Virus record (IMG/VR): IMGVR_UViG_3300025237_000001
Coordinates: 133,359 to 197,358 of that record
Direction: 5' to 3' (one strand)
Source of the DNA: a virus
Length of the DNA: 64,000 nucleotides
In this document: positions 62,472 to 62,575 of the stretch, one piece after another
How positions within the stretch are numbered: position 1 is the first letter of the stretch
How the letters are laid out: each line of letters opens with the position of its first letter
Position numbers and translations under genes: made by a program
The notes under the pieces: generated by a model
What the model was told of the DNA's origin: nothing
The model's database searches: none
The model's input: only the letters and a program-made list of their open reading frames with translations

Positions 62472-62575
62472 GGGTAATTAGCTTAAAAGGTAAAGCATCG
62501 AAGGTCACGTAGTGTATCCGCACAGGGTGATGTACACAACCGATTATATGGACTCGAAATTCATACTATCCACCA
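62472..62575 (+). ncRNA. tRNA-Ala-like RNA (G3.U70, CCA) with pseudoknot replacing anticodon loop
   Basis: GGGTAAT/ACTATCC-A-CCA; D-arm GCTT/AAGC; ATCG/CGAT; GTCAC/GTGAT and GTGTA/TACAC. Confidence 0.65.

What the first reader, a model, noticed from the sequence alone, without database searches (positions are those of the whole stretch)
62472..62575. Ala-identity tRNA body carrying an H-type pseudoknot instead of an anticodon
Seen: G3.U70, A73, encoded CCA, normal D-arm, and an ATCG/CGAT stem enclosing 40 nt that form GTCAC/GTGAT and GTGTA/TACAC crossing helices; T-loop CTCGAAA. Known: G3.U70 suffices for AlaRS charging; tmRNA likewise joins an Ala tRNA-like domain to a pseudoknot. Inference: a 'mini-tmRNA'-like alanylated RNA without a tag ORF, possibly for ribosome rescue or as a decoy.
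Basis: partly seen in the sequence, partly recalled or inferred. Interest (0 to 1): 0.72.

Follow-up and report, generated by a model that had tools for sequence, protein, structure and literature searches.

The report
Alanine-type tRNA look-alike without anticodon
Inside the tRNA gene cluster of a large marine phage sits a 104-base gene for a tRNA-shaped RNA that keeps the marks for loading alanine but has a stiff branched hairpin where the codon-reading loop should be; a diverged copy in another phage keeps the same fold, so it is a real gene of untested function, not a pseudoknotted mini-tmRNA.

Summary
The tRNA-like body at 62472-62575 is real: a 7-pair acceptor stem with G3.U70, A73, a D arm, a T arm, and a 4-pair stem closing 40 nt with no anticodon loop. 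ARAGORN and Rfam call it neither tRNA nor tmRNA. A model built from this sequence alone finds one homolog, L020:1128-1224 (JGI contig, 58% identical, E 3e-6). Between the two copies 94.5% of pair cells stay paired and 10 of 28 pairs change on both sides; slid controls give 0-1. G3.U70 and A73 are kept in both copies. Among 102 tRNAs called in all DNA held here, G3.U70 occurs only in two tRNA-Ala. The 40 nt are not an H-type pseudoknot. Stem 1 covaries, but the crossing stem 2 breaks in the homolog. Its 5' strand instead forms a local 4-pair hairpin with an AWCC loop, which covaries. Contigs from two further marine studies also carry the element. It is absent from eight related phage contigs, three of them complete or nearly so. 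Best reading: a tRNA-Ala-derived, non-decoding RNA, matured like a tRNA and probably alanylated, acting off the decoding path. Charging and function are untested. The scan has noted similar anticodon-less alanine mimics in other phages.

The parts
62472..62478 (+). acceptor stem, 5' strand (GGGUAAU), G3 at 62474
   Evidence: pairs with 62565-62571; 5-68 A-U becomes G-C and 6-67 A.C becomes A-U in L020
62481..62496 (+). D arm: 4-bp stem GCUU/AAGC, 8-nt loop with GG
   Evidence: 2 of 4 pairs compensatory against L020; predicted by RNAalifold
62497..62500 (+). closing stem of the long arm, 5' strand (AUCG), in the anticodon-stem position
   Evidence: pairs with 62541-62544; 2 compensatory pairs
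62504..62508 (+). arm helix S1, 5' strand (GUCAC)
   Evidence: pairs with 62527-62531; 2 compensatory pairs in L020
62512..62523 (+). terminal hairpin GUGU[AUCC]GCAC, tip of the arm, flanked by the conserved GUA (62509-62511)
   Evidence: GAUU[AACC]AAUC in L020, 2 compensatory pairs; minimum-energy fold in both copies
62527..62531 (+). arm helix S1, 3' strand (GUGAU)
62532..62540 (+). single-stranded 3' side of the asymmetric junction (GUACACAAC); its last six bases align with the anticodon-loop-like UCAUAA of L020
   Evidence: unpaired in all folds
62541..62544 (+). closing stem, 3' strand (CGAU)
62548..62564 (+). T arm: AUGGA / CUCGAAA / UUCAU (C54 and A53-U61 are unusual)
   Evidence: 50-64 U-A becomes A-U in L020; the loop is UUCGAAU in L020
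62565..62575 (+). acceptor stem 3' strand (ACUAUCC, U70 at 62569), discriminator A73 (62572), CCA (62573-62575)
   Evidence: CCA not conserved in L020

Best explanation
It is a real, lineage-restricted RNA gene derived from a tRNA-Ala-type body. It is probably co-transcribed with the neighbouring tRNA genes, which lie 4-6 nt away. It would then be cut out by RNase P and the 3' tRNA-processing enzymes, given or keeping CCA, and folded into a tRNA elbow: acceptor stem plus T arm, with the D-loop GG meeting the T-loop UC. Through G1-C72, G2-C71, G3.U70 and A73 the host alanyl-tRNA synthetase, which does not read the anticodon, should load it with alanine. In place of the anticodon arm it carries a 3-4 bp stem, an asymmetric junction (about 3 nt against 8-9 nt) and a roughly 10-bp irregular hairpin capped by an AWCC tetraloop. 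It therefore cannot decode a codon. The most likely role is off the decoding path, as a decoy or carrier whose long arm is a docking surface for a protein. It would either tie up a factor that handles alanyl-tRNA-like molecules or offer alanine outside normal elongation. Shown here: the fold, its conservation and the alanine marks. Inferred: processing, alanylation and the role.
For: Fold and homology: a single-sequence model finds L020:1128-1224 (E 2.8e-6). On the two-copy alignment (58% identity) 94.5% of pair cells pair and 10 of 28 pairs are compensatory, against 0-1 in slid controls and 0 of 500 shuffles. RNAalifold recovers five of the six nested helices on its own, all but the closing stem. 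Helices S1 and the tip hairpin were not in the model that made the alignment. Alanine marks: G3.U70, A73, G1-C72 and G2-C71 are unchanged in both copies while pairs 5-68 and 6-67 change. Of 102 distinct ARAGORN tRNAs in all DNA held, only two have G3.U70, both tRNA-Ala(UGC). One of them (L045:1038-1113) has nearly the same acceptor helix, GGGUGAU/AUUAUCC-A-CCA. No decoding: ARAGORN and Rfam tRNA give no call, and there is no 7-nt loop with U33 in the window copy. Array context: 4-6 nt spacers to flanking tRNA-like genes in both phages. Retention: Logan contigs from two further marine studies align over the element at about 90-94% identity, even where the adjacent GIY-YIG gene is missing. Precedent: a tRNA-like-domain-only tmRNA in phage DS6A, and a similar molecule that inhibits tmRNA (PMC4131195, PMC11915505).
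Against: Only two full sequences could be compared. The differences in the Logan contigs were not shown. The element is absent from eight related phage contigs, including complete or near-complete ones of 360, 482 and 675 kb, so it is dispensable. The window copy has weak spots: A6.C67, C54, A53-U61 instead of G53-C61, and a fold no better than shuffles. No RNA data exist, and alanylation is inferred from identity rules only. No partner protein was identified. U4-A69 differs from the G4-C69 of E. coli tRNA-Ala (from memory).
Confidence: 0.48

Rival explanations
1. Tag-less mini-tmRNA: an alanylated tRNA-like domain that works with SmpB and EF-Tu on stalled ribosomes, or that titrates SmpB.
For: G3.U70 and A73 as in tmRNA. 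The phage's own tmRNA at 46161-46535 also has G3.U70. A tRNA-like-domain-only tmRNA exists in phage DS6A, and a similar molecule inhibits tmRNA (PMC4131195).
Against: No Rfam tmRNA match at E up to 10 and no ARAGORN tmRNA call at lowered threshold. The acceptor and T arms differ from the phage tmRNA. It has a paired, covarying D stem and a long arm in the space that SmpB occupies on a tmRNA tRNA-like domain (established structure, recalled). The claimed pseudoknot is not conserved.
Confidence: 0.07
2. A decoding tRNA that carries a hairpin insert (intron-like) in its anticodon loop. The hairpin is cut out, or tolerated, leaving a CAU (L020) or CAC (window) anticodon.
For: At lowered threshold with introns allowed, ARAGORN calls the L020 copy tRNA-Met(CAU) with a 26-nt insert between positions 32 and 33. 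This leaves a textbook loop U-UCAUAA. Related phages have other tRNA genes with inserts in the anticodon loop, for example L010:9273-9418 at 48.7 bits.
Against: The window copy gives no call. After removing the hairpin its stem has 3-4 pairs and the loop is 8-10 nt without U33. There is no bulge-helix-bulge motif, and it is far too small for group I. No RtcB or RNA ligase was found in the held 197 kb, though the genome is incomplete. A CAU or CAC anticodon on a G3.U70 body would misread Met or Val codons as Ala. The hairpin covaries while the loop does not stay canonical.
Confidence: 0.1
3. A decaying tRNA-Ala gene or recombination scar in an array churned by homing endonucleases, with no function of its own.
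For: Restricted to a narrow lineage. Defects in the window copy (A.C mismatch, C54, A53-U61; z 0.15). Homing endonuclease genes lie in the array, and L020:368-404 is a leftover tRNA 5' half.
Against: Two copies only 58% identical keep 94.5% of pairs with 10 compensatory changes, including the two arm helices. The element is retained in contigs from two further studies.
Confidence: 0.12
4. A tRNA-shaped RNA that is not aminoacylated and acts purely as a structural decoy or sponge. It might bind a tRNA-modifying enzyme, a tRNA-cleaving defence nuclease or another tRNA-binding protein, with the alanine-type stem inherited from its ancestor.
For: The same structural evidence as the best explanation. 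CCA is not conserved. The array is full of other non-canonical tRNA-shaped RNAs. T4 keeps two stable RNAs of unknown function in its tRNA cluster.
Against: G3.U70 is a wobble pair. Without selection it would be expected to drift to G-C or A-U, as neighbouring pairs did, yet it is kept in both copies. With two sequences this argument is weak.
Confidence: 0.2

Closest known systems
tRNA-Ala and the AlaRS identity set (G3.U70, A73, G2-C71); synthetic alanine minihelices
   Same: Same acceptor-stem marks; D arm, T arm and elbow contacts (GG in the D loop, UC in the T loop). A phage tRNA-Ala(UGC) at L045:1038-1113 has almost the same acceptor helix.
   Different: No anticodon loop. The arm is 48 nt with a branched, rod-like hairpin. 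Not called by ARAGORN or Rfam tRNA. C54 and A53-U61 in the window copy.
tRNA-like domain of tmRNA, and the tag-less (TLD-only) tmRNA of mycobacteriophage DS6A (PMC4131195, PMC11915505)
   Same: A phage-encoded, alanine-marked, non-decoding tRNA-like RNA without a tag reading frame.
   Different: No sequence or model match to tmRNA. A full D stem and a long arm sit where tmRNA has none and SmpB binds. The 5' and 3' halves are contiguous, as in a tRNA.
Phage T4 species 1 and 2 RNAs (rnaC, rnaD)
   Same: Small stable RNAs of unknown function at the end of a T4-type tRNA cluster that also holds a GIY-YIG homing endonuclease gene. rnaC has a tRNA-like T arm.
   Different: No homology by the covariance model (21.8 bits, T arm only); different size and fold. 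The alanine identity of the T4 RNAs was not examined.
Intron-bearing tRNA genes (archaeal bulge-helix-bulge, bacterial group I)
   Same: Extra sequence inside the anticodon arm; the L020 copy would leave a canonical loop if the hairpin were removed.
   Different: No bulge-helix-bulge; 26-28 nt is too small for group I. The insert sits at 32/33, not 37/38. The window copy leaves no canonical arm.
YrlA / Y RNA-like RNAs (Rfam RF02553)
   Same: A tRNA-like module joined to a long helix.
   Different: 13 bits against a gathering score of 69, and that match spans the previous tRNA's T arm plus this D arm. The topology is different, since YrlA's ends lie in the long helix.

Membership tests
tRNA (Rfam RF00005 / ARAGORN) | Cloverleaf scoring above the family threshold, with a 5-bp anticodon stem and 7-nt loop | tested here: not met
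   No RF00005 match even at E 10 on a 291-nt slice; no ARAGORN call, with or without introns
tRNA (Rfam RF00005 / ARAGORN) | Acceptor stem, D arm and T arm in tRNA order | tested here: met
   All three helices pair in both copies, with compensatory changes
Alanine acceptor identity (AlaRS substrates) | G3.U70 wobble pair | tested here: met
   G.U in both copies; elsewhere only in 2 tRNA-Ala out of 102 tRNAs
Alanine acceptor identity (AlaRS substrates) | A73 discriminator with G1-C72 and G2-C71 | tested here: met
   Unchanged in both copies
Alanine acceptor identity (AlaRS substrates) | Actual charging with alanine | not testable with these tools
   Needs an AlaRS assay or in vivo charging analysis
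tmRNA / TLD-only tmRNA | Match to the tmRNA models (RF00023, permuted form, ARAGORN tmRNA) | tested here: not met
   No match over the element; the phage's real tmRNA scores 71.4 bits
tmRNA / TLD-only tmRNA | Reduced D region without a stem, and no anticodon-arm equivalent (space taken by SmpB) | tested here: not met
   A 4-bp D stem and a 48-nt arm, both covarying
tmRNA / TLD-only tmRNA | Partner SmpB available from the phage | tested here: inconclusive
   No PF01668 in the held 197 kb, which CheckV rates 56% complete; the host SmpB is unknown
H-type pseudoknot | Two crossing helices, both maintained | tested here: not met
   Stem 1 is kept with 2 compensatory pairs. Stem 2 has 0 compensatory pairs and 3 of 5 broken. 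A nested hairpin is preferred
Intron-bearing tRNA | Removal of the insert restores a canonical anticodon arm | tested here: not met
   Restored only in L020, at lowered threshold; not in the window copy
Phage T4 rnaC / rnaD | Sequence and structure similarity | tested here: not met
   Model R2 gives 21.8 bits on rnaC, T arm only, and nothing on rnaD

The most novel reading that the evidence does not exclude
This is one member of a wider, undescribed class of phage-encoded alanine-accepting RNAs that never decode. The alanylated acceptor end is the working part, and the rod-like arm recruits a specific phage or host protein. The phage would then use charged tRNA look-alikes off the ribosome, or to jam ribosome-rescue or tRNA-directed defence pathways, during infection.
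Probability: 0.2. Interest if true: 0.8.

Novelty: new variant of a known kind. Interest (0 to 1): 0.52.

Why it matters
Phage tRNA clusters are usually read as codon-usage helpers. A conserved tRNA-shaped RNA that keeps the alanine loading marks but has deliberately lost the ability to read codons points to another use of the tRNA scaffold during infection: as a decoy, a carrier of alanine, or a protein dock. It sits in an island of other re-engineered translation RNAs: D-armless tRNA-Ile look-alikes, anticodon-armless mini-tRNAs, suppressor tRNAs, a tmRNA and a half-size HisRS. The hypothesis is directly testable, because AlaRS charging of a 104-nt transcript, with a G3-C70 control, is a one-day experiment. 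If the RNA is charged, the next question is which protein reads the arm.

Tried and rejected
- No RNA holder was listed among public runs, so expression and splicing could not be examined.
- Read laying showed relatives in three runs (two studies) covering the element, but its tables were cut and did not list the differences inside 62472-62575.
I tried to reach them through a spurious antisense ORF used as a protein query; this found nothing.
- Exact and degenerate pattern scans of IMG/VR gave only chance hits in coding DNA, plus one ordinary tRNA-Ala.
- blastn against GenBank phages gave nothing meaningful. tblastn with the neighbouring small protein found no match.
- The genome-contig scan gave one irrelevant hit.
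- Covariance models R1 and R2 found no further member in 33 loci, the T4 tRNA region, 16 pattern loci or 8 whole related contigs. One weak R1 hit (L017, E about 1) lies in coding DNA.
- SmpB, AlaRS, RtcB, T4-type Rnl1 and Rnl2-type ligase families were not found in the held 197 kb. The record is only about 56% complete, and the Rnl1 control rang nowhere, so these blanks say little.
- The antisense ORFs over the element have no convincing family match.
- Complex prediction and structure prediction were not used, because there is no protein partner to test.

Full report
**Where it lies**

The window is the last 64 kb of a 197 kb IMG/VR virus record that CheckV rates about 56% complete. Its nearest GenBank matches are uncultured phages of 634-642 kb. 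Positions 58.6-63.7 kb hold a dense array of tRNA and tRNA-like genes interrupted by HNH and GIY-YIG homing endonuclease genes and a half-size HisRS gene. A tmRNA and two amber suppressor tRNAs lie upstream. The finding sits 4 nt after one odd tRNA-Ile-like gene (62391-62467) and 6 nt before another (62582-62662). Both of these lack a D arm.

**Observation**

- Acceptor stem: 62472-62478 pairs with 62565-62571, with six standard pairs and one A.C, including G3.U70.
- 3' end: A73, then CCA.
- D arm: a standard 4-bp stem with GG in the loop.
- T arm: loop CUCGAAA.
- Arm: a 4-bp stem AUCG/CGAU enclosing 40 nt.

ARAGORN does not call it. Rfam's tRNA and tmRNA models do not reach it even at E 10 on a 291-nt slice. 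Folded alone it is no more stable than shuffled sequence (z 0.15). On its own evidence it could therefore have been a wreck.

**Homolog and covariation**

A covariance model built from this sequence alone (R1) found one convincing match among related loci. The match is L020:1128-1224, on a 1.7 kb JGI metagenome contig that shares the neighbouring small-protein gene at 79% identity (34.7 bits, E 2.8e-6). There too it lies about 4 nt after a D-armless tRNA-Ile-like gene. The two copies are 58% identical.

Results on their alignment, for a fully nested structure of six helices:
- 94.5% of pair cells are standard pairs.
- 10 of 28 pairs changed on both sides.
- Sliding the partners by 1-3 columns gives 35-48% pairing and 0-1 compensatory pairs.
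- None of 500 column shuffles reached the observed values.

The two helices inside the 40 nt (S1 and the tip hairpin) were not part of the model that produced the alignment, so they are an independent check. RNAalifold recovers the acceptor stem, D stem, S1, tip hairpin and T stem unaided. Single-sequence folds of the isolated arm give the same S1-plus-hairpin fold in both copies. The whole L020 copy folds into the full cloverleaf with the long arm as its minimum-energy structure.

**The pseudoknot**

Stem 2 (GUGUA/UACAC) is not: in L020 three of its five pairs break and none is compensated. Its 5' strand instead pairs locally as GUGU[AUCC]GCAC, which is GAUU[AACC]AAUC in L020, with two compensatory pairs. 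There is also a geometric objection, which is my inference from known H-type pseudoknot architecture. The proposed link between the 3' strand of stem 1 and the 3' strand of stem 2 is a single nucleotide, too short to cross a 5-bp helix.

The arm is better described in three parts:
- a 3-4 bp stem;
- an asymmetric junction of about 3 nt against 8-9 nt;
- an irregular helix of about 10 bp, with a conserved GUA on its 5' side, capped by an AWCC tetraloop.

**Alanine marks**

G1-C72, G2-C71, G3.U70, U4-A69 and A73 are identical in the two copies. Pair 5-68 changed from A-U to G-C, and pair 6-67 from A.C to A-U. G.U occurs twice, both times in tRNA-Ala(UGC). One of those, L045:1038-1113 from an unrelated viral contig, has nearly the same acceptor helix as the element.

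It is established knowledge that AlaRS recognises G3.U70 and A73 and ignores the anticodon. Charging with alanine is therefore a reasonable inference, but it is untested. The encoded CCA is not conserved (CUA in L020), and most tRNAs of the array lack it, so it is probably incidental.

**Is the insert an intron?**

With introns allowed and a lowered threshold, ARAGORN calls the L020 copy tRNA-Met(CAU). The 26-nt S1-plus-hairpin becomes an insert between positions 32 and 33, leaving the textbook loop U-UCAUAA. The window copy gives no such call. After removing the hairpin its stem has 3-4 pairs and the loop is 8-10 nt without U33.

Further points against an intron:
- There is no bulge-helix-bulge motif.
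- The insert is far too small for a group I intron.
- RtcB and RNA ligase families were not found, although the genome is incomplete.
- The hairpin covaries while the loop does not stay canonical. This is the opposite of what a spliced decoder predicts.
- A CAU or CAC anticodon on an alanine body would mistranslate.

I keep this as a minor rival.

**Is it a tmRNA relative?**

The phage's own tmRNA (46161-46535, 71.4 bits) also has G3.U70, but its acceptor and T arms are different. No tmRNA model touches the element. It keeps a paired D stem and an arm in the space that SmpB fills on tmRNA. The literature does offer a functional precedent. Mycobacteriophage DS6A carries little more than a tmRNA tRNA-like domain, and a similar molecule inhibits tmRNA, perhaps by titrating SmpB (PMC4131195; PMC11915505). 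The element resembles that idea but is not a member of that family.

**Distribution**

- Model R2, built from both copies, found no further member in 33 loci, eight whole related contigs (three of them complete or nearly so, at 360, 482 and 675 kb), the T4 tRNA region or the pattern-derived loci.
- Four IMG/VR pattern scans found none.
- Public marine metagenome assemblies do hold relatives. Contigs from two further studies align across 62486-62663 (11 differences and 1 gap) and 62439-63379 (85 differences). One set lacks the GIY-YIG gene next door, so the element is retained independently of that mobile gene. I could not retrieve those contigs.

**Comparison with T4**

T4's tRNA cluster ends with tRNA-Arg followed by two stable RNAs of unknown function, rnaD and rnaC, and contains the GIY-YIG gene segB (PMC2330249). 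That is a similar setting, but R2 shows no homology beyond a T arm.

**Verdict**

This is a real, structurally constrained, narrowly distributed tRNA-Ala-derived RNA that cannot decode. It is probably processed like a tRNA and probably alanylated, and its role is unknown. My best guess is a decoy or carrier acting through its arm. The pseudoknot and the tmRNA kinship are not supported. Earlier notes of this scan describe comparable anticodon-less alanine-marked RNAs in other phages. I used them only as leads.

Noticed in passing
window 62391-62467, 62582-62662, 63620-63710; also L010 7381-7462 and 8841-8924, L018 3948-4028, L020 587-677 and 1033-1123, L029 3645-3725 and 4351-4440, L027 about 1585-1670: tRNA-Ile-like genes (anticodons GAU or UAU) in which the D arm is replaced by about 4 nt. 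A long region after the anticodon arm carries a D-loop-like GUAGYGGU motif. Rfam tRNA scores are 30-40 bits and ARAGORN often misses them. They are conserved across distant huge phages.
   Followed up: partly
window 63374-63553 and 63559-63616; L018, L020, L021, L022, L025, L027, L028, L029: A conserved two-gene cassette. It holds a roughly 58-aa protein with invariant C-terminus CGEDPYCYCGDGTPYSY (56 database relatives). Within about 10 nt follows a 57-nt tRNA-like RNA that has acceptor, D and T arms but no anticodon arm (Rfam tRNA 37-45 bits).
   Followed up: partly
window 58667-58752 with 58806-58879, 59706-59790, 60866-60953, 61644-61729; L010 5820-5909 with 5915-5988; L018, L029: His, Met, Asn and Trp tRNAs carrying long extra (variable) arms, next to normal-length tRNAs with the same anticodon. 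The pairing recurs in distant relatives.
   Followed up: no
L010 9273-9418: A tRNA (Rfam 48.7 bits) with a roughly 73-nt insert after CUGAUA in the anticodon loop. The insert itself contains a perfect CAU anticodon hairpin (CACGG-CUCAUAA-CCGUG).
   Followed up: no
window 62712-63350 and 59171-59626: GIY-YIG (phrog_314, E 5e-38) and HNH homing endonuclease genes inside the tRNA array. Relatives in two marine runs lack exactly 62664-63348, as expected for a mobile gene. T4 segB sits in the same kind of place.
   Followed up: partly
window 62105-62248: A unit of about 47 nt, repeated directly (TTATAATGGAAAATATT...TTTCTGCACTTAAAAC), just upstream of tRNA-Arg(UCU). Relatives carry one copy fewer (joint 62152 to 62200). 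A similar motif precedes tRNA-Arg in L029. It may be a phage promoter.
   Followed up: no
L020 368-404: A stray tRNA 5' half (acceptor strand plus a D arm much like that of the element) abutting tRNA-Arg(UCU). It is a sign of recombination among array members.
   Followed up: no
window 50051-50532: Three further tRNA-shaped RNAs with large inserts and normal T arms. None has G3.U70, read by eye.
   Followed up: partly
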